Below are positions 2,349 through 29,124 of a stretch of 35,964 bases of DNA, one piece after another. Origin of the DNA: a virus (lineage: Duplodnaviria > Heunggongvirae > Uroviricota > Caudoviricetes); the IMG/VR virus record IMGVR_UViG_2541047714_000007; one strand, 5' to 3'. Each line of letters begins with the position of its first letter. Positions within the stretch are counted from its first letter, which is position 1. Under the pieces are notes generated by a model. It did no database searches. It saw only the letters and a program-made list of their open reading frames with translations, and was not told the origin of the DNA. A program made the position numbers and the translations under genes.

Positions 2349-2945
2349 TCAGTGGGAGTGGTGGCTGGAGTTTTCGCCATCAGACAACATACTGCCCGTG
2401 GCATGGGCATTCCCTTTAATCTCGATATTGCCATGGATGGTCGCGGTAACACCTTCACCACCAGAACCCGCCATGCCTCCTTCGTAAATCAGCTTACCCC
2501 TGACACGCAGATCTCCGGTAAGTTCGGTTTCCGGTGCGTCAATCGTGGCTTTCTGTGTTTTCAATACCACATCAGCACCACACTCAATGACAATATGCTC
2601 AATGCCGCCCCGGATGATCAGAGTGTGCGTCTTCCGGTTATAGCTGTATTCTGCACCATCAGCAAACCGGGTTCCCCGGATATTTTTGTCACTGAACGGT
2701 GGTTTATCGACGTCTGAATACACCGCGCCCAGAATAACACCATCCTCGCCGTTGGCATCGAGCAGTACCTCAACCTGCTCCCCCACGTCAGGGAGCCAGT
2801 AATCTTTGTTATCCTGGGTATTGCGCTGCAGCACGTTAAGCCAGTTTGTGCGCAGGTTATCGCATTCAGGCAGACGAACGCGGGCCTGAACCCTGTCGGC
2901 ATCAACGGCACTGACCGTACCGACCTGACGAGTGACACCAGTCAT
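2349..2945 (-). CDS. Baseplate spike/assembly protein V-like
   Basis: 198-aa ORF immediately after the gpD-like gene; Gly-rich C-terminal tail consistent with gpV-type spike proteins. Confidence 0.75.
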   Translation of the reverse strand: MTGVTRQVGTVSAVDADRVQARVRLPECDNLRTNWLNVLQRNTQDNKDYWLPDVGEQVEVLLDANGEDGVILGAVYSDVDKPPFSDKNIRGTRFADGAEYSYNRKTHTLIIRGGIEHIVIECGADVVLKTQKATIDAPETELTGDLRVRGKLIYEGGMAGSGGEGVTATIHGNIEIKGNAHATGSMLSDGENSSHHSH

Positions 2946-4096
2946 TTTTTCTTCTCCTTAATCACCGTCGATGTACTGCCATCCGGGTGATAAACCGTGA
3001 GTTTCTGAGTTTTTTGTTTTTTACCTCTTGTGACTGGCCCCCGTGCCACTTCCAGCTCTGTGGTGTAGCCGCTGTTACGGTCAAACGCATGACGGGCAGT
3101 GGTTATGAGCCATGCCCCGGATAACTGCCCAAAACCCACCAGTTCAATTTTGTTGCCTGCTGTCAGTTGAGGTGTTCCCGTCAGCGTCAGGGAGCCGTTC
3201 TGCTGGTATTCGTTATGTCTGGCCAGTGCTGAATCCGCTTTAATCCGGGCACTGTCCGGGTCGCTGACGCGGCTGTTAACTTTAAGTGAGTCAGCACTGG
3301 TAACCTTACCACCTTTGAGCTTTTTGTCGCTTTCACGGGTACCACCATCAGCTTCGTAGACGATCAGTTTTTTACTGCTGCTTTTCTGGTGTTTTACCTT
3401 TGCAGATTTATAGACCCGGTTGATGGTGTCACGCAGGGAAAAGCGGGCCACATCCTGCGGTTTTAACTGCCTGACCGGCTCCTGACTGCGCAATGTGGCC
3501 AGATGAGAAAAAATCAGCTGGTCACTGACCACTTTCACTGCATAACCATACTCGCTGGCCAGCCGGCGCAGAAAACCCACGTCGGTTTCAGCATACTGGG
3601 TCACCCGGTCGATTCTGATGGACTCAATGCTGCCCACCAGTTTCAGCCGGTGCTTTCGGGCAATCCTTCCCGCGATGGCCGCCAGCGTGGTGTTCTCGAA
3701 ACCACGACTGGTTTTAGTCCGCAGGGCACTGTTAACCGAGGTGGCCACGCCACGGATAGAAACAACGGAAGCGGGCGAACTCACCTCGATCTCGTCTATA
3801 GAAAACGTACCGCAGGACAGCAGTTTCTCGCCCTGATAGCCCATTTTCAGCGTCAGCGTGTCACCTTTGCCCGGATACCACTTATCCAGCCAGCGGCCAT
3901 CGGTGTCGTCCAGCTCCACCTCAACAGTATCGGACTCATTTTTGATGTTATCGCTCCAGGTCACACGGGTGACATAAGGCGCGATATCAGAGGTGATGTT
4001 TTTCTGCAGATACCACAGAGTGAACACCGGTGTCAGCACATCGCTGACGCCGGTTAACGCTGATGTGACTTGCGCAGTGCTGTTTATCTCAGCCAT
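2942..4096 (-). CDS. Baseplate hub, P2 gpD-like (late control D family)
   Basis: 384-aa ORF following the X-like and U-like genes, matching the conserved U-X-D order of contractile tails; basic Lys-rich C-terminus. Confidence 0.75.
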   Translation of the reverse strand: MAEINSTAQVTSALTGVSDVLTPVFTLWYLQKNITSDIAPYVTRVTWSDNIKNESDTVEVELDDTDGRWLDKWYPGKGDTLTLKMGYQGEKLLSCGTFSIDEIEVSSPASVVSIRGVATSVNSALRTKTSRGFENTTLAAIAGRIARKHRLKLVGSIESIRIDRVTQYAETDVGFLRRLASEYGYAVKVVSDQLIFSHLATLRSQEPVRQLKPQDVARFSLRDTINRVYKSAKVKHQKSSSKKLIVYEADGGTRESDKKLKGGKVTSADSLKVNSRVSDPDSARIKADSALARHNEYQQNGSLTLTGTPQLTAGNKIELVGFGQLSGAWLITTARHAFDRNSGYTTELEVARGPVTRGKKQKTQKLTVYHPDGSTSTVIKEKKK

Positions 4097-4299
4097 GGGG
4101 CAATATCCTCTTCTGTACGGGCTTCTTCAGCCTCAATCACCGGGATCAGTAACAACAGCCCGGAGGGCAGCACCGGCGTGATGGCCACGTGCGGATTGGC
4201 GGCAATAATCCGGGGATAGCCCAGCGGGTCACCGTAGTACTGCCATGCCAGCGAATCCCAGCGCTCTCCGTCACGGGTAACATGTTCAAGAAACATCAC
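4084..4299 (-). CDS. Tail protein X-like
   Basis: 71-aa ORF between the U-like and D-like genes with overlapping stop/start on both sides. Confidence 0.65.
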   Translation of the reverse strand: MMFLEHVTRDGERWDSLAWQYYGDPLGYPRIIAANPHVAITPVLPSGLLLLIPVIEAEEARTEEDIAPWLR

Positions 4300-5180
4300 A
4301 CACTCCTCGTCAGTATTCTGGCGGCCATTGCACTTAATCCCGGAGACATGCGGTTGAATGCTGTGCCGGCGGCGTTAAGCTGCCCGGAAACGGTATCCAG
4401 AGCACCTGCAATATTTCTTTTGTCCACACCACTCAGCGCAGACTGTGCCTGCTGTACATACGTGGCTGCTTCGCTGGCTGTTCTGGCCAGACTGATGGCA
4501 TCGGGCATGGATTCAGAGAGTGCGTTAAACGCCGGAACACTTTTCCCCAGAGCCCCGGAGATATTACCCAGTCCGCTCATCAGCCCCGGCACACGGGTCA
4601 GTGCGACAACGGGGTTATCCTTCATTTTCTGTGTCACCCGAACGGCGCTGATAGTGGTCTGGAGTACAGACTGCGCCTGTTTCGCATAGTTGACGCCGTT
4701 GCGGATGAACTGCGCCACCCCTGAAGGTGAAGGAATGGCACCGGAGACCGCCCCGACACCCGGGAGCTTCGTGCGTATTGCCGGTGGTTGCAGAGGATTT
4801 TTCGGGTCACCGGTGTATTCCCGGAGAGACACGGTGGCACTGACAGCCAGCACGTTGCCGGTACTGTCAGTCTGCTCGCTGGTTGCAGTCACATCGGTAA
4901 TCACGAACCAGCCGCGATAGTCACCGTTGCCGAAGACCAGCGCCAGTGCCTGATGGGCTTTCATGGCTGTTCGCAGTCTCGCCAGCTCCACATCGGGTAC
5001 ACAATAATGCTGATGGAAAACCAGAGTTATCTGGATTTCGTCCAGCCTGTCGCCGACGAACTGCAGGCCAGGCTTACCCCCGATGCGGGCATGCTCCGCA
5101 TAATCGACGCCGAACGTGGCCTCGAAGCCGTCCCAGTAGGTAATCAGCTCAAACTCAATATCACCCAGTACGGCAAACAT
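4296..5180 (-). CDS. Tail protein, P2 gpU-like N-terminal domain with C-terminal extension
   Basis: 294 aa; N-terminus MFAVLGDIEFELI...GKPGLQFVGDRLDEIQITLVF resembles my recollection of the gpU / Mu N N-terminal domain. Start overlaps the tape-measure stop. Confidence 0.55.
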   Translation of the reverse strand: MFAVLGDIEFELITYWDGFEATFGVDYAEHARIGGKPGLQFVGDRLDEIQITLVFHQHYCVPDVELARLRTAMKAHQALALVFGNGDYRGWFVITDVTATSEQTDSTGNVLAVSATVSLREYTGDPKNPLQPPAIRTKLPGVGAVSGAIPSPSGVAQFIRNGVNYAKQAQSVLQTTISAVRVTQKMKDNPVVALTRVPGLMSGLGNISGALGKSVPAFNALSESMPDAISLARTASEAATYVQQAQSALSGVDKRNIAGALDTVSGQLNAAGTAFNRMSPGLSAMAARILTRSV

Positions 5181-8131
5181 CAGCGGTACTCCTTACGTTG
5201 TTTCTGAGCCAGCAGACGCTCCAGCATTTTTTCCAGCTCATGCAGGCTCATATTCAGGGCGCCAGTCAGTCCGGCAGGCGCTGTGGTTTCCCTGCCATTG
5301 AGGAAAAACTGAGGATTAAAGCTGACCTGGATACCACCAGACGTTCCACCGCCGGTTGCAGCTGCACCACGGCCTGAATATCCGGCAGCCATGATTTCAG
5401 GCGAGGGGATACGGGGAACATCCGGTGTCATCTCATTTGCCAGACGTTGCCCTGGTAAAATCGATGCCCGGGTGGAGAGCGGGATAGCGGGCATGGAAGA
5501 CAAACTATTGATTACGGCTCCGATCGCATTTTTAGCAGACGACATAAACCCGTTGATATCGGGCAACGGCATACTGAAGCGAACACCTGAAGTGTTATCC
5601 CGTATTTCTGGCCCCTGAATGCTCACGGGCATTCTGGGGAGCAGTTCACTGGCCATTCGCTGCCCGGCCAGAGCTGCAAGCGGAGTGGTCCGCTGCAGGC
5701 CAATGGCGGCCCCCTGCGCGATATTGTCACCAAAGCCCATAAACACGCGGCTCGGCGAATGAATGCCCAGCTTTTCGCTGAACCAGCCACTGATGCTGTC
5801 ACCCATTCCGGTTACACTGGATTTGAGCGACTCCCATTTGTTTTTGATACCGTTAATCAGACCATCGACAAGATGGCCACCGAAGTCGGTAAACTTTGCC
5901 GGCAGATCAACACCAAGATATTTCAGCGCAGCTGCAAAGGCTTTACAGAGCAGACCTGCCGGCGACCAGTTAATCAGCAGCTTACCAGTTCCCGCGATAC
6001 CGCCGTTAAAGGCTTCCTGAATGTCAGCCCAGCGTTGTTCAAACCAGCTACTGATGCTGTCACCCATTCCGGTTACACTGGATTTGAGCGACCCCCATTT
6101 GTTTTTGATACCGTTAATCAGACCGTCGACAAGATGGCCACCGAAGCCGGTGAACTTTGCCGGCAGAGCAACGCCGAAATATTTCAGCGCAGCCGCAAAG
6201 GCTTTATAGAGCAGGCCTGCCGGCGACCAGTTAATCAGCAACTTACCAATTCCCACAATGCCGCCGTTAAAGGCTTCCTGAATGTCAGCCCAGCGCTGTT
6301 TAAACCAGCCACTGACTGCCCCCCAGTTGCGGTAGATAAGGTAAGCTGCTGCCGCGACAGCGGTGATAACGAGACCGATGGGATTCATCATCAGCGCACG
6401 TCCAATCCAGAGAACAGCACGTCCGGCGAGCATAATTCCGCGAACCAGTCCCCCGGAGAGCACGCCACTCAGTGTTCTGGCTCCTCTGGCGACGGCGCTA
6501 AATCCGGTCACCAGCCAGCGGAGCTTACCGCCTTGCCCCAGTGCGAGCGACAGACGAAGCCAGTTGGCCCGAAGTAAAACAGCATTTTTCCAGACACTTA
6601 CAAAGGGGGAAATAAGGAGATTCAGCCCCAGTTTGAGACCAACAGTCGCTATCTTAATCGCAAGGAGCGCACTGATGAGCTTAAAAGCCCCACTGACAAA
6701 TTGCGGGTGAGTCGCTACCCAGTGTTTTGTCCCCTGAATGAGTGGGAGCAGTTCCTGAGTCAGAGAAATAAAAGATGGAGCTAATTGATCGCCCAGCGTA
6801 ATTGCCAGATCGCGACTGCTGACCATAAGTGCTTTAGTGGCTTCAAGGGGAGATTTCAGCCGCTGATCATAAGCACTGGCAAGCAAATCGTTATCCGCAG
6901 CCCTGAGAGCACCGGCGCGGATCTCGCGATATCTGTCCATGTTGGCCAGCATCGGGCGGATAAATGCCATGACCTGCATATCCGCGAACATATCACCCAG
7001 ACCAAAGTTTTTCGCCAGAGCCTGAAGTGCCTCATCTCTTGCCGTATCATTCTTTATTTTCATGGCGGATTTGAAGCCGGCCAGCGCTTCGGGGCTTTTG
7101 GCATTGAGGTAACGTTCTATAACACTCAACATCCCTTCAATCGGAGAGATCCCCGCAGCCTTATAACTCGCAATAGATCCCTGCAAATCAATACCCAGAT
7201 CAGCAAACTGTTTCTGAGTATCGCGGGCAAAAATTTTGGTAAGAAAGTTTTTAAAATTATTGGCTGCCTCGTCGGTGGAACCTGCACCGATTTTTGCTAT
7301 CTGGAGACTGGCCCCGATTTCAGCAACAGCCTCTTTTCCACTGGCAATACCCGCCATCATTGGGGCCAGGGACTGCATCCACTTGACCTGATCCGGGATT
7401 TCAAATGACCCCTGGTCACCGGCATAAGCCATAATATTCTGAACGGCACCAAAATCTCTGGCCGCACCTTTCAGGGAGTTTTGCCAGACTGCGGCCACTT
7501 TTGCCCAGTCCTGAGATGACGTGCGTGTTGCCGTTGCCGCGCGGGCAATATCCGGCATCAGAAAACCGATATCTGACAAGTTATCAATATTGTCGCTGAT
7601 GAGCGAACCCACCGCCTCCTGCAGCTCATCCTGATACTGATTGTATTTAAGCGCCCAGCCTTTTATCTGTCCGGCAAGTGCATCCCGCGTTTTATTGTCA
7701 TATTTTGCGGTGATCGACATATCAATCATTTTGTCCTGAAAAGACATGGACTGCTGAACGGCAGGGGAAACGGTATGATAAACAGTCTGTGCCATGCCAT
7801 ACGCTTCAATCCCCTGACCATACAGCGCCATGCGGTTAGCTTTCAGCGCATCACTGGTAGCGGATGCCGCTGACAGACGGCGCTGCTGGCGCTCAATTTG
7901 CTCCATGGTGCGGCTTACCCGCAGCAGCTCGCTGTTGAGATGCTGCATCCGGGAAGAACCCAGTTGACCATAACGTTCTGTTGCACGGGTTAAAGCGTTC
8001 TGACGTTCCTGCAGGCGGCGTGAGGTATCGCTCAGGGAATCAAGCGCACGGCGGGTACCGCTCATTGCAGAACGGAATGTGCTGCCAATCATCCCGCCGA
8101 TAACAACGCCGACTGAAAACTGTCCCGACAT
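5180..8131 (-). CDS. Tail tape measure protein
   Basis: 983-aa ORF, longest in the window, Ala/Gly/Ser-rich with predicted helical N-terminal part, located between tail chaperone and baseplate genes. GGAGG 8 nt upstream of the ATG at 8131. Contains a two-copy 87-aa tandem repeat. Confidence 0.9.
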   Translation of the reverse strand: MSGQFSVGVVIGGMIGSTFRSAMSGTRRALDSLSDTSRRLQERQNALTRATERYGQLGSSRMQHLNSELLRVSRTMEQIERQQRRLSAASATSDALKANRMALYGQGIEAYGMAQTVYHTVSPAVQQSMSFQDKMIDMSITAKYDNKTRDALAGQIKGWALKYNQYQDELQEAVGSLISDNIDNLSDIGFLMPDIARAATATRTSSQDWAKVAAVWQNSLKGAARDFGAVQNIMAYAGDQGSFEIPDQVKWMQSLAPMMAGIASGKEAVAEIGASLQIAKIGAGSTDEAANNFKNFLTKIFARDTQKQFADLGIDLQGSIASYKAAGISPIEGMLSVIERYLNAKSPEALAGFKSAMKIKNDTARDEALQALAKNFGLGDMFADMQVMAFIRPMLANMDRYREIRAGALRAADNDLLASAYDQRLKSPLEATKALMVSSRDLAITLGDQLAPSFISLTQELLPLIQGTKHWVATHPQFVSGAFKLISALLAIKIATVGLKLGLNLLISPFVSVWKNAVLLRANWLRLSLALGQGGKLRWLVTGFSAVARGARTLSGVLSGGLVRGIMLAGRAVLWIGRALMMNPIGLVITAVAAAAYLIYRNWGAVSGWFKQRWADIQEAFNGGIVGIGKLLINWSPAGLLYKAFAAALKYFGVALPAKFTGFGGHLVDGLINGIKNKWGSLKSSVTGMGDSISSWFEQRWADIQEAFNGGIAGTGKLLINWSPAGLLCKAFAAALKYLGVDLPAKFTDFGGHLVDGLINGIKNKWESLKSSVTGMGDSISGWFSEKLGIHSPSRVFMGFGDNIAQGAAIGLQRTTPLAALAGQRMASELLPRMPVSIQGPEIRDNTSGVRFSMPLPDINGFMSSAKNAIGAVINSLSSMPAIPLSTRASILPGQRLANEMTPDVPRIPSPEIMAAGYSGRGAAATGGGTSGGIQVSFNPQFFLNGRETTAPAGLTGALNMSLHELEKMLERLLAQKQRKEYR
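5768..6315. repeat. Tandem in-frame duplication (2 x 261 bp plus a short partial third unit) inside the tape measure gene
   Basis: Protein copies GWFKQRWADIQEAFNGGIVGIGKLLINWSPAGLLYKAF... and SWFEQRWADIQEAFNGGIAGTGKLLINWSPAGLLCKAF... are near-identical. On DNA, the unit starting near 5768 repeats at 6029 (period 261 bp). The plus-strand shadow ORFs 5763..6020 and 6021..6209 also have near-identical translations. Confidence 0.9.
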
Positions 8132-8206: not shown

Positions 8207-8464
8207 CTATGATTTGTCGCCGTACTCGCTTTTGATTTGCTCTTCAGCCTGCTCCAGCCACATCTCCAGATCGTCAGTATCGAGGGCATCAATCTCCCCC
8301 GGCTGAAACCGGAACCATCTCGCCAGCAGCCCCTGCGCCTGCGTCAGCGCCCTGGTTGCTCTCACCCATCCCCGTGATGAGCTGAAATCGTTTCTGTAAC
8401 TGCAGGTAATCAGCCAGATCCATATTGTCGAGATCTTCCGGGAGAAGACCAGTACTGCGGGCAA
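8207..8464 (-). CDS. Putative frameshift extension of the tail assembly chaperone (E'-like)
   Basis: Open frame overlapping the 3' part of the chaperone gene and ending 76 bp before the tape-measure start. It has no ATG (nominal TTG start). It lies in the +1 frame relative to the chaperone (codon first bases at 8464-3k versus 8624-3k). Confidence 0.4.
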   Translation of the reverse strand: MPAVLVFSRKISTIWIWLITCSYRNDFSSSRGWVRATRALTQAQGLLARWFRFQPGEIDALDTDDLEMWLEQAEEQIKSEYGDKS

Positions 8465-8624
8465 TCAGCGGTTCGTCCCAGTCTGCCGGGTTTTTGCTGA
8501 TTTTGCGCACCTGCTTCAGGTCTTTTACCGTCAGGCGTTTCAATTCAACCTGCTCAATTCTGGTGCCGGCAGCAGTGGTGAAGGGATAAGACAATTTAAA
8601 AGTATCGGACTGGGTCTGTGACAT
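8289..8624 (-). CDS. Tail assembly chaperone (gpE/G-like)
   Basis: 111-aa acidic ORF between the tube and tape measure genes; AGGAG 7 nt upstream of the ATG at 8624; overlapped by a second ORF in another frame, as expected for tail chaperones. Confidence 0.65.
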   Translation of the reverse strand: MSQTQSDTFKLSYPFTTAAGTRIEQVELKRLTVKDLKQVRKISKNPADWDEPLIARSTGLLPEDLDNMDLADYLQLQKRFQLITGMGESNQGADAGAGAAGEMVPVSAGGD

Positions 8625-9006: not shown

Positions 9007-9528
9007 TCAGCCCCCGATATTGATGCGGTAGTCGGTCAGTTGATCAACGCCACCAACGCGGAAGATGTTGGCCAGATAGTCCAGCTCCAGCAACTCTTCA
9101 CCATCCAGTACCTGCTTGATGTACGTGCAGGTGAAGCTACTGGAGAATTCGGCGTTCTCATGCTGTTTGAACGTCCCCAGCGGGTTCTTCTTGAACATGA
9201 TCGTCAGGAAGGTGACCAGCGGGATTTCGTCAATCAGCCCCTGCGAGCTGTAGCGCTGGACGCTTGAGCGACACTGCAGCGCCAGCGACTTGTACGGGTT
9301 CGCGGCAGACAGCATCGCGTCGCGGTAAAAGCTGTTCCACTTGATCTCGCCCTCAAGCTTGTCGAAGCCTGCCGGGAGTTCCACCTTGCCCACCATCCCC
9401 AGCGCCTTATGCTCCTGCATGGTCATGGAGACGTCCGGGAGTTTGACCTCCTCGGCACGCCCCAGCAGGTTAGCACCATCCAGGTAGATGTTGGCATTCG
9501 TGATGCGGTTGATCTCAATCTTTGCCAT
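9007..9528 (-). CDS. Tail tube protein
   Basis: 173-aa ORF immediately downstream of the sheath gene (stop/start overlap at 9528), the canonical sheath-tube order. Confidence 0.8.
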   Translation of the reverse strand: MAKIEINRITNANIYLDGANLLGRAEEVKLPDVSMTMQEHKALGMVGKVELPAGFDKLEGEIKWNSFYRDAMLSAANPYKSLALQCRSSVQRYSSQGLIDEIPLVTFLTIMFKKNPLGTFKQHENAEFSSSFTCTYIKQVLDGEELLELDYLANIFRVGGVDQLTDYRINIGG

Positions 9529-10955
9529 CAGCTATTCCCCTTCAGGGTTAACAGATATTCCGAGGTGATCTCGGTCTCAAACGTCAGCCGCTCCAGCGAC
9601 GGTGGCGGCGTGTATTTGTAGCTCAGCAACAGGTGACCTGCGGCAAGCTCCGTCTCTTCATTACGGGCCGGATCAAACCAGCAGCTGAAGCCCAGCAGCG
9701 CACCGTCGCCAATCAGTTTGCGACCATAGGCGTTGACCGACTCCGTCAGTGCATCAATCAGCGCCTGAGTAATCGGCATGTCGATGTACTGCTGGCTGAA
9801 GTAACGAATGGACTCATTGATCACATCACCGGTGCGACGAACGTTCTCAAAGTTACGCATATGGGTGACCGTTGGCCATGCTGCCGTCCGGTTACCCCAC
9901 AGACGAAGGCCGCTGCCGTAACTGCTGAATACCGTGGTGATCCCCTGTTCGTTGAGCAGGTTCACCTCGCTCTGCGGGTCGTCAATCATTGCTGACAGTT
10001 GGCGCTCCACACCAGTGATACCCAGAATCTCCTGGTTGGAGGACGACCACCAGTAACCCTTGTCCATGTCGACCCTGGCACGCAGACCTGCAGCACGCTG
10101 GCTCAGCGGCTCCAGCCGTTCGCTGTTGGTGACCGCGTCGTACACCTTGACGTGCGGGTAGCACAGACGGACGCGGTCGGAGCTGGTGTTGAAGTTAATG
10201 GTGCCTTCCGGGCCACGCCCCGCCAGAGCCTGAGCAAAAGTGGTACCAATCGGCGCGTCGATGTAAGTCACCGCGCCCAGCTTCTCAGCCATGGCGATAA
10301 GCTCAACCGAGACGCTGTTCTGGGTGCAGAATACCGGGGCAATCAGGATTTTTGCGAAGTAACCAAACAGGTTGAAGCTGTCGTTAAGCAGCTTCATACC
10401 GGTACGGTTGCCCGCCGCGTTAACGGCACCGATGATATCAGCCGGGGTGACTTTAGTTGGATCAGCATAGTTATAGCTGGCCTTCACCGTTGCATCTGCC
10501 GCGATGCTCTTACCGAGGTTGGTAATCGCCCCGGTCTGTGCATCAAGCGAGTAGTCCTGACCTTCCACATAAGGCTGGCCATCGTTGTCCGGTTTCAGTA
10601 CCAGCTGCGCGACCACCGGATTAGCCAGCTGTGCCTTGCCCGTCGCCTTGTCGAACGCTACATCTTCATCGGCCACAGCGGTTTTATGCACAGCCGGATC
10701 AAGCACGTTAATGACCAGAACGGTGCCTGCACCATGGTCATAAATCGCATCCAGCGCCTGCGGAATGGTAAAGCCGGTGAGCTGGTTGCCAAACGCAGCA
10801 GCATCTTTCTCAGACAGGCACTGCACCAGCGTATTGACGTCCCCCATCGGGGCGGTACCAATCAGGCCAATAACGGCAGATTTCACCGTTTTAACCGGGC
10901 GGGCTCCGTTTTCCACCTCAATGGTTTCGACGCCATGCAGATAGTTAGCTGCCAT
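9528..10955 (-). CDS. Contractile tail sheath protein
   Basis: 475-aa ORF, size and position typical of sheath; followed by tube, chaperone and tape measure. Confidence 0.85.
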   Translation of the reverse strand: MAANYLHGVETIEVENGARPVKTVKSAVIGLIGTAPMGDVNTLVQCLSEKDAAAFGNQLTGFTIPQALDAIYDHGAGTVLVINVLDPAVHKTAVADEDVAFDKATGKAQLANPVVAQLVLKPDNDGQPYVEGQDYSLDAQTGAITNLGKSIAADATVKASYNYADPTKVTPADIIGAVNAAGNRTGMKLLNDSFNLFGYFAKILIAPVFCTQNSVSVELIAMAEKLGAVTYIDAPIGTTFAQALAGRGPEGTINFNTSSDRVRLCYPHVKVYDAVTNSERLEPLSQRAAGLRARVDMDKGYWWSSSNQEILGITGVERQLSAMIDDPQSEVNLLNEQGITTVFSSYGSGLRLWGNRTAAWPTVTHMRNFENVRRTGDVINESIRYFSQQYIDMPITQALIDALTESVNAYGRKLIGDGALLGFSCWFDPARNEETELAAGHLLLSYKYTPPPSLERLTFETEITSEYLLTLKGNS

Positions 10956-26177: not shown

Positions 26178-27947
26178 ATGAATGCTGCCCTGACTGAACG
26201 ACTGGTTTATGTCGCCCGCGCGGCACGTGACGCGGGGCATGGTAAACGCGGTGCAATATATGACGCTGCCTGTGCTGAACTTGGCATGTCCCGCGCCACT
26301 CTGCTGCGCAGGCTGAAGGAGGTCTCTGTGACTGATAAACGCAAAAAACGCGCCGATGCCGGGCGCAGCGCCCTGACCCGCGACGAAGCCGCGCTGATAT
26401 CTGCCACACTGCGTGAGGCCACCCGCAAGAACGGTAAGCGTCTCTATTCCATCGCAGATGCAGTGGAAACCCTGCGGGCTAACGGCTTTATCACCGCAGG
26501 CAGAACAGATGAAACCACCGGTGAGTTTTTCCCGTTGTCCGAAGATGCCATCAGTCGTGCCCTGCGTAACTATGGCCTGCACCCGGAACAACTGGATGCC
26601 CCTGCGCCGCATACCGAAGTGGCCAGTCTGCATCCCAATCATGTCTGGCAGATTGACGCCTCACTCTGCACGCTTTACTACCTGAGCAATGGACATAAAG
26701 GGCTGCAGGTGATGGACAGCGCGAAGTTCTACAAGAACAAGCCCGCTAACCTTGCCCGTATCGCCAGTGACCGCGTGTGGAGTTACGAGATTACCGACCA
26801 TGCCAGCGGCTGGATTTACGTTGAGTATGTGACGGGCGCGGAATCCGGTGAGAACCTGTGTTCTGTGCTTATCAACGCCATGCAGGAGCGTGGCGGCGCA
26901 GACGTGCTGCACGGCGTGCCGAAAATACTCTATCTCGACCCCGGCTCGGCAAACACCGCGGGTATGACGAAAAACATGTGCCGCTCACTGGGCATCGACC
27001 TGATAGCGCACAAGCCGCATAACGCCCGCGCCACCGGACAGGTGGAAAAGGCGCGTGACATTATCGAACGCAAGCTGGAGCCGGGTCTGAAGTTCCAGCC
27101 GGTTCACAGTCTGGAAGAACTCAACGCGCTGGCCGCGAAATGGCGCAGCCACTTTAACGCCACGGCTGTTCACAGCCGCCACGGTAAAACCCGCACGGAT
27201 ATCTGGCTGAAGATTACTGCTGAGCAGCTGAAAAAAGCGCCTTCCGTTGAGGTATGCCGTGAACTGGCTGTGGCGGCACCAGAACTCCGCAAAGTCACGC
27301 CAAAACTTCGTGTCTCGTTCCGGGGCACTGAATTTGACGTATCAACGGTACCTGACGTACTGGTCGGTGAAAAACTGATGATTACCCGTAACCCGTGGCG
27401 CAGCGATGTGGCACAGGTGGTTCTGACCGGTGAGGACGGCCACGAGACGTTCTTCCTGGTCGAAGAGGTCAGAAAGAACGAGTTTGGCTTTGCTGAAGGC
27501 GCGGCGGTATTTGGCGAAAGTTACAAAGCCCTGCCGGAAACCCCGGCACAGATGGCGGCAAAAGAAACCGAAGCGCTGGTTACCGGTACAGACAACGCCG
27601 CAGATGCAGCCGCCGCACGCAAGGCGAAGGCGCTGCCGTTCGGCGGGCAGCTTGACCCGTATAAACATATCGACGACACCACACTTCCGGCCTATATGCC
27701 GAAGCGTGGTCAGGCCTCTGACGTACGCGGGCCGCGCACTGAACAACGTCCCATGACTCATGTGGAGGCCGCGAAAGCCCTGCGCGATAAGTTCAGCGCC
27801 GACGGCCTTACCTGGACGCCGGAACATTACCGCCAGTTAACGGCACAGTACCCGGACGGCGTACCGGAAGCCGCACTGGATGAAGTCATGGCCACGCTGA
27901 CCACACCGGCCCGCAGCAGTGTTATCAGCATTGTTAACGGCAACTGA
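26178..27947 (+). CDS. DDE transposase, MuA-like (integrase catalytic core)
   Basis: Candidate DDE triad in HVWQIDAS, ILYLDPGSANTAG and ATGQVEKA, with spacing typical of rve-type cores; followed immediately by a MuB-like ATPase gene; GGAGG upstream. Confidence 0.85.
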   Translation: MNAALTERLVYVARAARDAGHGKRGAIYDAACAELGMSRATLLRRLKEVSVTDKRKKRADAGRSALTRDEAALISATLREATRKNGKRLYSIADAVETLRANGFITAGRTDETTGEFFPLSEDAISRALRNYGLHPEQLDAPAPHTEVASLHPNHVWQIDASLCTLYYLSNGHKGLQVMDSAKFYKNKPANLARIASDRVWSYEITDHASGWIYVEYVTGAESGENLCSVLINAMQERGGADVLHGVPKILYLDPGSANTAGMTKNMCRSLGIDLIAHKPHNARATGQVEKARDIIERKLEPGLKFQPVHSLEELNALAAKWRSHFNATAVHSRHGKTRTDIWLKITAEQLKKAPSVEVCRELAVAAPELRKVTPKLRVSFRGTEFDVSTVPDVLVGEKLMITRNPWRSDVAQVVLTGEDGHETFFLVEEVRKNEFGFAEGAAVFGESYKALPETPAQMAAKETEALVTGTDNAADAAAARKAKALPFGGQLDPYKHIDDTTLPAYMPKRGQASDVRGPRTEQRPMTHVEAAKALRDKFSADGLTWTPEHYRQLTAQYPDGVPEAALDEVMATLTTPARSSVISIVNGN

Positions 27948-27957
27948 GGAGGGAAAC

Positions 27958-29124
27958 ATGCTGGTACTGAAGCAGCAACTGAAAGAGGCCCGTATTCCAC
28001 AGGCGGTGGTGGCGAGAGCTGTCGATGTTTCTGAGGCCACGCTGGCCCAGATTGTGAATCATAACGCGTGGCCCCGCACCAGCCCCGGAGAAGTGCGCCG
28101 GCGTCTTGCGTCCTGGCTGGAAAGTCAGGGGATTGATACAGCGAAGAGTTTTGATGCTGTACAGGGCGCGACCACGCCCCGTACAGCGGGTACCACAGAT
28201 AAAACGAGCCTCAGTGAGGAAGAGAATATGTTACTCAAAAAACAGGTGTTATTCCCGGCAACCAAAAAAGCGTTTGGTCTTTTCCGTGACCCGTTCGCCG
28301 ACGAAGCCATGCAGGGTTCTGATGATGTGTTCACCACCCCGGACATTCGCTACGTGCGTGAGGCGTTGTACCAGACAGCCCGTCATGGTGGGTTTATGGC
28401 CGTCATCGGTGAGTCCGGTGCGGGTAAATCCACGCTGCGCCGCGACCTGACTGAACGTATCAACCGCGAGAATGCGCCGGTAATTGTTATCGAGCCATAC
28501 ATCATCGCTATGGAAGACAACGATGTGAAAGGGAAAACCCTGAAGGCAGCAGCGATTGCCGAAGCCATTATCAGTACCATCGCACCACTGGAAAGCATCA
28601 GACGCAGTCAGGACGCCCGCTTTCGCCAGTTGCATCGCGTCCTGAAAGACAGCAGCCAGGCGGGGTTCAGCCACGTTCTGGTGATTGAGGAGGCCCACAG
28701 TCTGCCTATTCCGACACTGAAACACCTCAAACGCTTTTTTGAGCTGGAGTCCGGTTTCAAAAAACTGCTGTCCATCGTGCTGATTGGCCAGCCGGAACTG
28801 GCGACAAAACTGTCTGAACGCAATATGGAAGTCCGTGAAGTCGTTCAGCGCTGTGAGGTGGTCGAACTTCTGCCTCTGGACAATAACCTTGAAGAGTTTC
28901 TGACGTTCAAACTGCAACGGGCCGGTAAACAACTGACGGACATTATGGACGCCAGCGCAGTGGATGCCATACGCGCCCGCCTGAGCAATCCGGGAAGTCA
29001 TCGTAAAAATATGGTCAGCCTGCTGTATCCGCTGGCCGTCAGTAACCTGGTAATAGCCGCCATGAATCTGGCCGCTGAAATCGGGGTTCCACAGGTCAAC
29101 GCTGACGTTGTCAAAGGGGTTTAA
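27958..29124 (+). CDS. Transposition ATPase, MuB-like AAA+ protein
   Basis: Walker A GESGAGKST and Walker B-like HVLVIEEAH; N-terminal HTH-like segment. Start taken at the ATG at 27958 (MLVLKQ...) with GAGGAGGG upstream. Confidence 0.75.
   Translation: MLVLKQQLKEARIPQAVVARAVDVSEATLAQIVNHNAWPRTSPGEVRRRLASWLESQGIDTAKSFDAVQGATTPRTAGTTDKTSLSEEENMLLKKQVLFPATKKAFGLFRDPFADEAMQGSDDVFTTPDIRYVREALYQTARHGGFMAVIGESGAGKSTLRRDLTERINRENAPVIVIEPYIIAMEDNDVKGKTLKAAAIAEAIISTIAPLESIRRSQDARFRQLHRVLKDSSQAGFSHVLVIEEAHSLPIPTLKHLKRFFELESGFKKLLSIVLIGQPELATKLSERNMEVREVVQRCEVVELLPLDNNLEEFLTFKLQRAGKQLTDIMDASAVDAIRARLSNPGSHRKNMVSLLYPLAVSNLVIAAMNLAAEIGVPQVNADVVKGV

What the first reader, a model, noticed from the sequence alone, without database searches (positions are those of the whole stretch)
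5768..6315. In-frame 261-bp tandem duplication inside the tape measure gene
Two near-identical 87-aa units plus the start of a third are present in the tape measure protein. Tape measure length sets tail length, so an in-frame duplication predicts a longer tail than in relatives with a single unit. The repeat is also a substrate for recombinational expansion or contraction.
Basis: seen in the sequence. Interest (0 to 1): 0.5.

Follow-up and report, generated by a model that had tools for sequence, protein, structure and literature searches.

The report
Copy-variable repeat in phage tape measure
A 261-bp stretch of the tail tape measure gene of a Mu-like E. coli prophage is really duplicated in frame, and related E. 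coli prophages carry one to four copies of it, so this is a clear natural example of a known way in which phages are thought to change tail length.

Summary
Window 5781-6315 holds two head-to-tail 261-bp copies that are 242/261 nt and 78/87 aa identical. A 13-nt junction motif is present three times. The array lies in frame in the 983-aa tape measure gene (5180-8131, minus strand) of a BcepMu-like transposable prophage with a P2-type contractile tail.

It is not an assembly artefact. The identical gene occurs in 7 complete E. coli genomes, and two-unit alleles dominate among about 630 complete genomes that carry this prophage.

Relatives fall into exact length classes of 896, 983, 1070 and 1157 aa, which is 1, 2, 3 and 4 units. 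A systematic sample gave about 4%, 71%, 23% and 2%. More distant relatives (KP12, BcepMu, phiE255, a Pseudomonas phage, a Salmonella prophage) have one unit.

One-unit alleles are A|B chimeras with four different switch points. Three- and four-unit alleles carry B|A chimeric or duplicated inner units. This is the signature of recurrent in-register unequal recombination.

Both units are under purifying selection (dN/dS 0.25). Each unit should add about 13 nm of tail; this is inferred, not measured.

The same segment has been duplicated with other periods in other tape measure lineages. It is a new member of a known kind, of modest interest.

The parts
5180..8131 (-). Tail tape measure protein gene, 983 aa
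   Evidence: ORF list and translation. PF10145 at aa 159-340, 72.6 bits. TIGR01760 at 56.2 bits against a cut-off of 28.8. PHROG 28 'tail length tape measure protein', E 1e-134. An identical 2952-bp gene is present in complete E. coli genomes.
6044..6304 (-). Repeat unit 1 ('type A'), aa 610-696
   Evidence: Unit HMM match 610-696 at 188 bits; coordinates.
5783..6043 (-). Repeat unit 2 ('type B'), aa 697-783; differs from unit 1 at 19 nt and 9 aa
   Evidence: Unit HMM match 697-783 at 190.8 bits. dS 0.187, dN 0.046, dN/dS 0.25.
6303..6315 (-). 13-nt junction motif (encodes S-G-W-F) at the upstream edge of unit 1
   Evidence: Exact AACCAGCCACTGA. The same (S/G)(S/G)WF motif flanks the single unit in KP12 and in the 821-aa E. 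coli lineage.
6042..6054 (-). Junction motif between unit 1 and unit 2 (one mismatch; S-S-W-F)
5781..5793 (-).
   Evidence: the protein continues GWFSEKLGIHSPSRVF.
6332..6703 (-). Hydrophobic segments of the tape measure protein (aa 477-513 and 572-600) immediately upstream of the repeat
   Evidence: Kyte-Doolittle 19-aa windows of at least 1.5.
8289..8624 (-). Context: tail assembly chaperone (gpE-like) upstream of the tape measure gene
   Evidence: PF10109, E 3.5e-22.
4296..5180 (-). Context: P2 gpU-like tail protein immediately downstream of the tape measure gene
   Evidence: PF06995, E 7e-39.

Best explanation
This is a genuine in-frame tandem duplication of an 87-aa segment of the tail tape measure protein. 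The host element is a BcepMu-like transposable prophage of E. coli with a P2-type contractile tail.

The ancestral protein had one copy of the segment, bounded on both sides by a short S-G-W-F-coding direct repeat. Recombination or slippage at that microhomology probably made the first duplication (inferred). Since then the two 261-bp copies have acted as substrates for in-register unequal homologous recombination and gene conversion. That has repeatedly produced alleles with 1, 2, 3 and 4 units (shown by chimeric units).

A tape measure protein lies extended inside the tail tube and stops tube polymerisation. Each unit is therefore expected to add about 12.6-13 nm, roughly three tube/sheath rings (inferred from other phages). 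The lineage would then carry a discrete tail-length polymorphism, and this window holds the commonest, two-unit allele.

The confidence given is for the whole statement. The sequence-level parts (real duplication, copy-number polymorphism, recombination signatures) are near certain; the tail-length effect is about 0.75.
For: **The repeat is real and in frame:**

**The gene is a tape measure gene in a tail-gene cluster:**

**It is not an artefact.**
- Seven complete genomes carry the identical 2952-bp gene.
- 464 of 5426 complete genomes hold a match covering at least 80% of the gene.

**Length classes differ by exactly one unit.**
- Homologues of 896, 983 and 1070 aa contain 1, 2 and 3 unit-HMM matches.
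- A 1157-aa, four-unit allele occurs in two complete genomes.
- In an evenly spaced sample of 60 of 634 genomes, 40 had 2 units, 13 had 3, 2 had 1 and 1 had 4.
- At least 13 complete genomes have one unit.

**The ancestral state is one unit.** KP12, phiE255, BcepMu, Komp_PAO1_1 and a Salmonella prophage each have one unit. The KP12 unit is equidistant from A and B: 226 and 225 of 261 nt identical.

**Recombination signatures at the 19 diagnostic sites.**
- Four one-unit alleles are A|B chimeras with different switch points.
- One of them (IPCEC48) has 0 differences in 2430 flanking nt from a two-unit allele (JJ1887).
- Three-unit alleles are of two kinds: A, B|A, B and A, A, B.
- The units of the four-unit allele are mosaics.

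**Both copies are constrained.** dN/dS between the units is 0.25, and dS of 0.19 exceeds allelic dS of 0.03-0.09 in the flanks. All alleles examined are intact ORFs.

**Ruler principle.** About 0.145-0.15 nm per residue was measured in TP901-1 and lambda (PMC5099701). Length determination is also reported for T4 (cited in PMC13585406).
Against: - No tail-length measurement exists for any allele of this phage, so the length effect is extrapolated.
- The structure prediction of the region was all-helical but of low confidence (pLDDT 42). It does not show that the unit is extended in the tube.
- Copy number in draft assemblies can be wrong (PhiKM gap). Only the complete-genome counts are trustworthy, and I could not check how each of those was assembled.
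- The mechanism of the first duplication (microhomology) is inferred from the junction motif alone.
Confidence: 0.8

Rival explanations
1. Assembly artefact: a single unit was wrongly expanded, or the copy number is otherwise wrong in this window.
For: Short-read assemblies do fail at this repeat. Phage PhiKM has a 100-N gap and a split tape measure gene exactly there.
Against: The two units differ at 19 positions, so they are not a simple read pile-up. The identical 2952-bp gene is present in 7 complete genomes from unrelated sources: armadillo, human, chicken and wastewater. Two-unit alleles are the majority class in complete genomes.
Confidence: 0.01
2. The duplication is real, but the unit does not act as ruler length. 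It lies after the hydrophobic segments and may belong to the distal part of the protein that sits in the baseplate or forms the membrane channel. Copy number would then alter DNA delivery or have no structural effect on tail length.
For: The unit follows two hydrophobic segments and precedes the conserved GIHSPSRV C-terminal region. In TP901-1 about 127 residues at the ends do not contribute to length.
Against: In TP901-1, deleting the hydrophobic Tm2-3 region just before the repeats still shortened the tail, and about 810 of 937 residues count toward length. Here the unit ends 200 residues from the C-terminus. Length classes are tolerated from 896 to 1157 aa with intact ORFs.
Confidence: 0.15
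3. The copy-number variation is neutral noise in decaying prophages that no longer build tails, so it has no phenotypic meaning.
For: Some carriers show damage. The tail chaperone gene next to the one-unit allele of strain E30 has an internal stop, and a baseplate gene is frameshifted in strain A24. In-register recombination preserves the frame automatically, so intact ORFs are weak evidence of selection.
Against: Tape measure flanks evolve under purifying selection (dN/dS 0.11-0.21), as do the units (0.25). A 96%-identical phage, PhiKM, was deposited as a phage isolate. The same segment has been multiplied and retained in many other tape measure lineages.
Confidence: 0.15

Closest known systems
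Lambda gpH and TP901-1 tape measure proteins (Katsura & Hendrix 1984; Pedersen 2000; Mahony 2016, PMC5099701)
   Same: In-frame deletions or duplications inside the tape measure gene change protein length, and tail length follows at about 0.145-0.15 nm per residue. In TP901-1 the repeat region also follows hydrophobic segments.
   Different: Those phages have non-contractile tails and the variants were engineered. Here the tail is contractile and P2-type, the variants are natural alleles, and no tail has been measured.
Tape measure tandem repeats with 11-aa W/F periodicity (Belcaid et al. 2011, PMC3271669)
   Same: Natural duplication and loss of repeat units inside tape measure genes, with conserved Trp and Phe residues.
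   Different: The unit here is 87 aa. That is not a multiple of 11, and aromatic residues show no excess at lag 11. There are only 1-4 copies of a large unit rather than many short ones.
BcepMu gp44, phiE255 gp18 and P2 gpT tape measure proteins
   Same: Homologous proteins (33-36% identity over aa 1-816) in the same gene order; they contain the same segment.
   Different: They carry one copy of the segment, against two in this window and up to four in E. coli.
T4 gp29 (Abuladze et al. 1994, as cited in PMC13585406)
   Same: Precedent that a tape measure protein sets length in a contractile tail.
   Different: No sequence relationship was tested, and the T4 variants were engineered.

Membership tests
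Phage tail tape measure protein (PF10145 / TIGR01760, TP901 family core) | Profile match above the curated cut-off | tested here: met
   PF10145 at 72.6 bits (cut-off 33.2). TIGR01760 at 56.2 bits (cut-off 28.8). PHROG 28, E 1e-134.
Phage tail tape measure protein (PF10145 / TIGR01760, TP901 family core) | Gene lies between the tail assembly chaperone and the distal tail/baseplate hub genes, downstream of the sheath and tube genes | tested here: met
   Order on the minus strand: sheath 9528-10955, tube 9007-9528, chaperone 8289-8624, tape measure 5180-8131, gpU-like 4296-5180, gpD-like 2942-4096.
Phage tail tape measure protein (PF10145 / TIGR01760, TP901 family core) | Long, largely alpha-helical protein with internal hydrophobic segments | tested here: inconclusive
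   Hydrophobic segments at aa 477-513 and 572-600. AlphaFold2 single-sequence model of aa 560-830 is all-helical, but pLDDT is 42.
Phage tail tape measure protein (PF10145 / TIGR01760, TP901 family core) | Protein length sets tail length | not testable with these tools
   Needs electron microscopy of particles from alleles with different unit numbers.
Bcepmuvirus-like transposable phage | DDE (rve) transposase plus AAA+ partner, close relationship to a classified member, and insertion at varied chromosomal sites | tested here: met
   rve transposase at 26178-27947 and AAA protein at 27919-29124. The tape measure gene is 96.4% nt identical to that of Escherichia phage PhiKM, classified in Bcepmuvirus. 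The prophage carrying the identical tape measure gene interrupts mdfA in strain A24.
Tandem array evolving by unequal homologous recombination | Alleles differ by whole units, with chimeric units at the predicted positions: A|B in contractions, B|A inner units in expansions | tested here: met
   Gene lengths of 2691, 2952, 3213 and 3474 nt. Diagnostic-site patterns.
11-aa W/F periodic tape measure repeats (Belcaid type) | Repeat period of 11 aa with aromatic residues at fixed positions | tested here: not met
   The period is 87 aa. Aromatic autocorrelation shows no outstanding peak at lag 11.

The most novel reading that the evidence does not exclude
The 87-aa segment is a natural tail-length 'rheostat'. 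On this reading, a single E. coli prophage lineage (present in about 12% of complete genomes, including O25:H4/ST131 strains) maintains four discrete tail lengths through recurrent unequal recombination. The same site of the tape measure protein has also been multiplied independently, with other periods (76, 83, 87, 105, 113-114 aa), in unrelated lineages. Together that would imply a structurally permissive site under selection for tuning the length of contractile tails, for instance to match envelope or capsule thickness.
Probability: 0.3. Interest if true: 0.5.

Novelty: new member of a known kind. Interest (0 to 1): 0.3.

Why it matters
That tape measure length sets tail length is textbook, and tandem repeats in these proteins are well described, so the finding in itself is ordinary. 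Two things are useful.

- It offers a ready-made natural allelic series of 1, 2, 3 and 4 units, in one case with identical flanking sequence. The series sits in a contractile-tailed, inducible-type prophage of a genetically tractable host. It could be used to test the ruler rule and ring quantisation in P2-type tails without any engineering.
- It carries a practical warning. Short-read assemblies and automatic annotation break at this repeat: PhiKM has a gap there, and PGAP calls an intact three-unit gene a pseudogene. Copy number should therefore be read only from long-read assemblies.

Tried and rejected
1. **Apparent mosaic C-terminus.** The three-unit alleles matched only query positions 1-2351, and 1070-aa proteins showed '80% coverage'. 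This suggested a mosaic boundary at the end of the repeat. Direct comparison showed only 4-8 differences in the 603 nt after the repeat, so it was an artefact of how BLAST pieces are reported.
2. **Counting alleles by coverage.** I tried the '>=80% coverage' statistic with one-unit and three-unit queries. The tool joins pieces across repeats, so the statistic is not usable. I counted spans in the listed rows instead.
3. **Structure prediction.** AlphaFold2 on aa 560-830 gave pLDDT 42. I did not use it and ran no fold search.
4. **Literature on tail lengths.** Searches for PhiKM and for BcepMu/KS10 tail lengths found no measurements.
5. **11-aa aromatic periodicity.** Tested and not found.
6. 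**Opposite-strand ORF 5759-6577 (+), 272 aa.** No PHROG match. I treat it as a by-product of the coding strand.

Full report
**Observation**

Tandem Repeats Finder reports a single array in the region, at 5781-6315: period 261, 2.0 copies, 92% matches, no indels, score 937. The ungapped repeat finder gives 5781-6041 against 6042-6302 at 93% identity. The array lies inside the ORF 5180..8131 on the minus strand, 983 aa.

In the reading frame the units are:
- aa 610-696, window 6044-6304, called type A here;
- aa 697-783, window 5783-6043, called type B here.

They differ at 19 of 261 nt and 9 of 87 aa. A 13-nt motif, AACCAGCCACTGA on the plus strand, encodes S-G/S-W-F. It occurs at 6303-6315, at 6042-6054 (one mismatch) and at 5781-5793. 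The array is therefore motif, body, motif, body, motif.

**What the gene is**

- The ORF matches PF10145 (72.6 bits, cut-off 33.2) and TIGR01760 'tape_meas_TP901' (56.2 bits, cut-off 28.8). It also matches several PHROG tape measure families.
- It sits in the canonical position on the minus strand: sheath (9528-10955), tube (9007-9528), gpE-type chaperone (8289-8624), tape measure, P2 gpU-like (4296-5180), gpD-like (2942-4096).
- The window also encodes an rve-family transposase and an AAA+ protein.
- The tape measure gene is 96.4% identical to that of Escherichia phage PhiKM, which is classified in Bcepmuvirus.
- In strain A24 the prophage that carries the identical tape measure gene interrupts mdfA.

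The element is thus a BcepMu-like transposable prophage with a P2-type contractile tail. Two hydrophobic segments (aa 477-513 and 572-600) lie just before the repeat. The conserved GIHSPSRV region follows it.

**Not an artefact**

The exact 2952-bp gene is present in seven complete E. coli genomes from unrelated sources, and an eighth differs minimally. In all, 464 of 5426 complete genomes have a match covering at least 80% of the gene.

The repeat does break short-read assemblies and annotation:
- PhiKM has a 100-N gap inside it and a split tape measure annotation.
- PGAP annotates the three-unit gene of strain A1.S1.65 as two pseudogene fragments, although it translates as an intact 1070-aa ORF.

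**Copy number varies from one to four**

- The closest 120 protein clusters fall into length classes of 896, 983 and 1070 aa.
- An HMM built from the two window units finds exactly 1, 2 and 3 full units in those classes.
- Complete genomes confirm genes of 2691 nt (E30, IPCEC48, UPEC129, F1140), 2952 nt, 3213 nt (A1.S1.65, 10034292-3, CU568-3, S22EC) and 3474 nt, which is 1157 aa and four units (LR-31).
- The four-unit allele is also in a second complete genome, LH50-c.
- At least 13 complete genomes hold one-unit alleles.
- An evenly spaced sample of 60 of the 634 matching genomes contained 40 two-unit, 13 three-unit, 2 one-unit and 1 four-unit alleles. It also held 3 genes of a more distant single-unit lineage (821 aa, KP12-like) and 1 truncated gene.
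- The 603 nt after the repeat are not divergent in the three-unit alleles (4-8 differences). The apparent '80% coverage' was a reporting artefact.

**Polarity and age**

More distant tape measure proteins each have a single copy of the segment. These are Klebsiella phage KP12, Burkholderia phages phiE255 and BcepMu, Pseudomonas phage Komp_PAO1_1 and a Salmonella Infantis prophage. The KP12 unit is equally distant from type A and type B, with 226 and 225 of 261 nt identical. One unit is therefore the ancestral state, and the duplication arose in the E. coli lineage.

In single-unit relatives the segment is already flanked on both sides by (S/G)(S/G)WF(K). This is a plausible microhomology for the primary event, but that step is inferred.

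Between A and B, dS is 0.187 and dN is 0.046, giving dN/dS of 0.25. Allelic dS in the 2427 nt of non-repeat tape measure sequence is 0.03-0.09, with dN/dS of 0.11-0.21. The duplication is thus older than the sampled allelic diversity, and both copies are under purifying selection.

**Mechanism of change**

I scored the 19 sites that distinguish A from B.

| Allele | Units | Pattern at diagnostic sites |
|---|---|---|
| E30 | 1 | A up to nt 98, B from nt 111 |
| UPEC129 | 1 | Switches between nt 90 and 98 |
| F1140 | 1 | Switches after nt 212 |
| IPCEC48 | 1 | B-like from nt 45 |
| A1.S1.65, 10034292-3 | 3 | A, B|A chimera (B at nt 45-56, then A), B |
| CU568-3, S22EC | 3 | A, A, B |
| LR-31 | 4 | All four units are mosaics |

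- The four one-unit alleles have four different switch points. IPCEC48 shows 0 differences in 2430 flanking nt from the two-unit allele of JJ1887, so that contraction is recent.
- The three-unit alleles are of two kinds.
- One-, two- and three-unit alleles occur in both major flank clades, which differ by about 70-80 nt.

These are the expected reciprocal products of in-register unequal recombination, with some conversion. They imply at least four contractions and three expansions among eleven alleles. The units share exact runs of 43, 35, 31 and 25 nt, which is enough for homologous exchange. That last point rests on general knowledge of RecA minimal homology.

**Consequence (inferred)**

In TP901-1 the tail shortens linearly with tape measure deletions, at 0.145 nm per residue. 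Lambda gave 0.15 nm per residue. The principle is also reported for T4. On that basis 87 aa is worth 12.6-13 nm. With a ring rise of about 4 nm in contractile tails (my own knowledge, not tested here), this is about three extra tube/sheath rings per unit. No tail of this phage has been measured. The single-sequence structure model was helical throughout, but its confidence was too low to use (pLDDT 42).

**Wider pattern**

I searched one unit against 1.84 billion cluster representatives. This gave 545 proteins at E <= 0.001. Of the 94 listed proteins of at least 700 aa, 22 carry two to four copies of the segment. The periods are 76, 83, 87, 105 and 113-114 aa.

In several of these proteins the copies within a protein are more alike than any copy elsewhere. 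Examples are P0123 (period 113-114) and P0134 (period 83). This points to independent duplications with different boundaries at the same site of the protein. The segment is not a recognised repeat family: NCBIfam has no model for it, and only its C-terminal half matches general tape measure PHROGs. It also lacks the 11-aa aromatic periodicity of the classical tape measure repeats (PMC3271669).

**Comparison and verdict**

Tandem duplication and loss inside tape measure genes, and their link to tail length, are established (PMC3271669, PMC5099701, PMC13585406). I found no paper on this particular E. coli prophage polymorphism in the searchable library, but that library is incomplete.

Its value is mainly as a natural allelic series for testing the ruler rule in a contractile tail, and as an assembly and annotation caveat. 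Interest 0.3.

Noticed in passing
L001 4915-5014 (PQ738613.1, Escherichia phage PhiKM): The deposited phage genome has a 100-N gap inside the repeat, and its tape measure gene is annotated as two CDS, 'disrupted by sequencing gap'. The repeat evidently defeats short-read assembly.
   Followed up: yes
L003 1501-4713 (NZ_CP146591.1, strain A1.S1.65): PGAP annotates the three-unit tape measure gene as two partial pseudogenes, yet the 3213-nt stretch translates as one intact 1070-aa ORF. This looks like an annotation artefact caused by the repeat.
   Followed up: partly
L012 974-3859 (NZ_CP069528.1, FDAARGOS_1252); proteins P0085, P0087: A 961-aa allele class has two units but lacks 22 aa (about aa 540-561) just upstream of the repeat. 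This is a second in-frame length change in the same region.
   Followed up: partly
Proteins P0036 (995 aa) and P0018 (1084 aa): P0036 has a 12-aa tandem duplication, GDSISSWFKQCW, at the unit junction. P0018 has a 101-aa duplication with different boundaries (about aa 533-634). Each comes from a single contig, so they may be real variants or assembly errors.
   Followed up: no
L002 8-343 (NZ_CM143888.1, strain E30): The tail assembly chaperone gene next to the one-unit tape measure allele is annotated as a pseudogene with an internal stop, so that prophage may be defective. Other one-unit carriers have it intact.
   Followed up: no
L015 29442-32380 (NZ_CP028751.1, strain A24): The prophage carrying the identical tape measure gene ends with tail-fibre gene fragments in both orientations next to a small serine recombinase. 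This resembles a Mu G-segment-like invertible host-range switch. The prophage abuts a truncated mdfA, consistent with transpositional insertion.
   Followed up: no
window 5759-6577 (+): A 272-aa ORF on the strand opposite the tape measure gene spans the repeat. It has no PHROG match and is probably not a gene.
   Followed up: partly
Proteins P0122-P0210 (cluster representatives): In other tape measure lineages the homologous segment is present in 2-4 copies with periods of 76, 83, 105 and 113-114 aa. Some copies are more alike within a protein than between proteins, suggesting independent duplications at the same site.
   Followed up: partly
L014 986-3451 (NZ_CP155528.1, strain 3-72) and L006 (Klebsiella phage KP12): A second, about 87%-identical tape measure lineage of 821 aa with a single unit coexists in E. 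coli and is nearly the same as that of Klebsiella phage KP12. The KP12 record is classified under Vequintavirinae, which looks inconsistent with a P2/BcepMu-type tail module.
   Followed up: no
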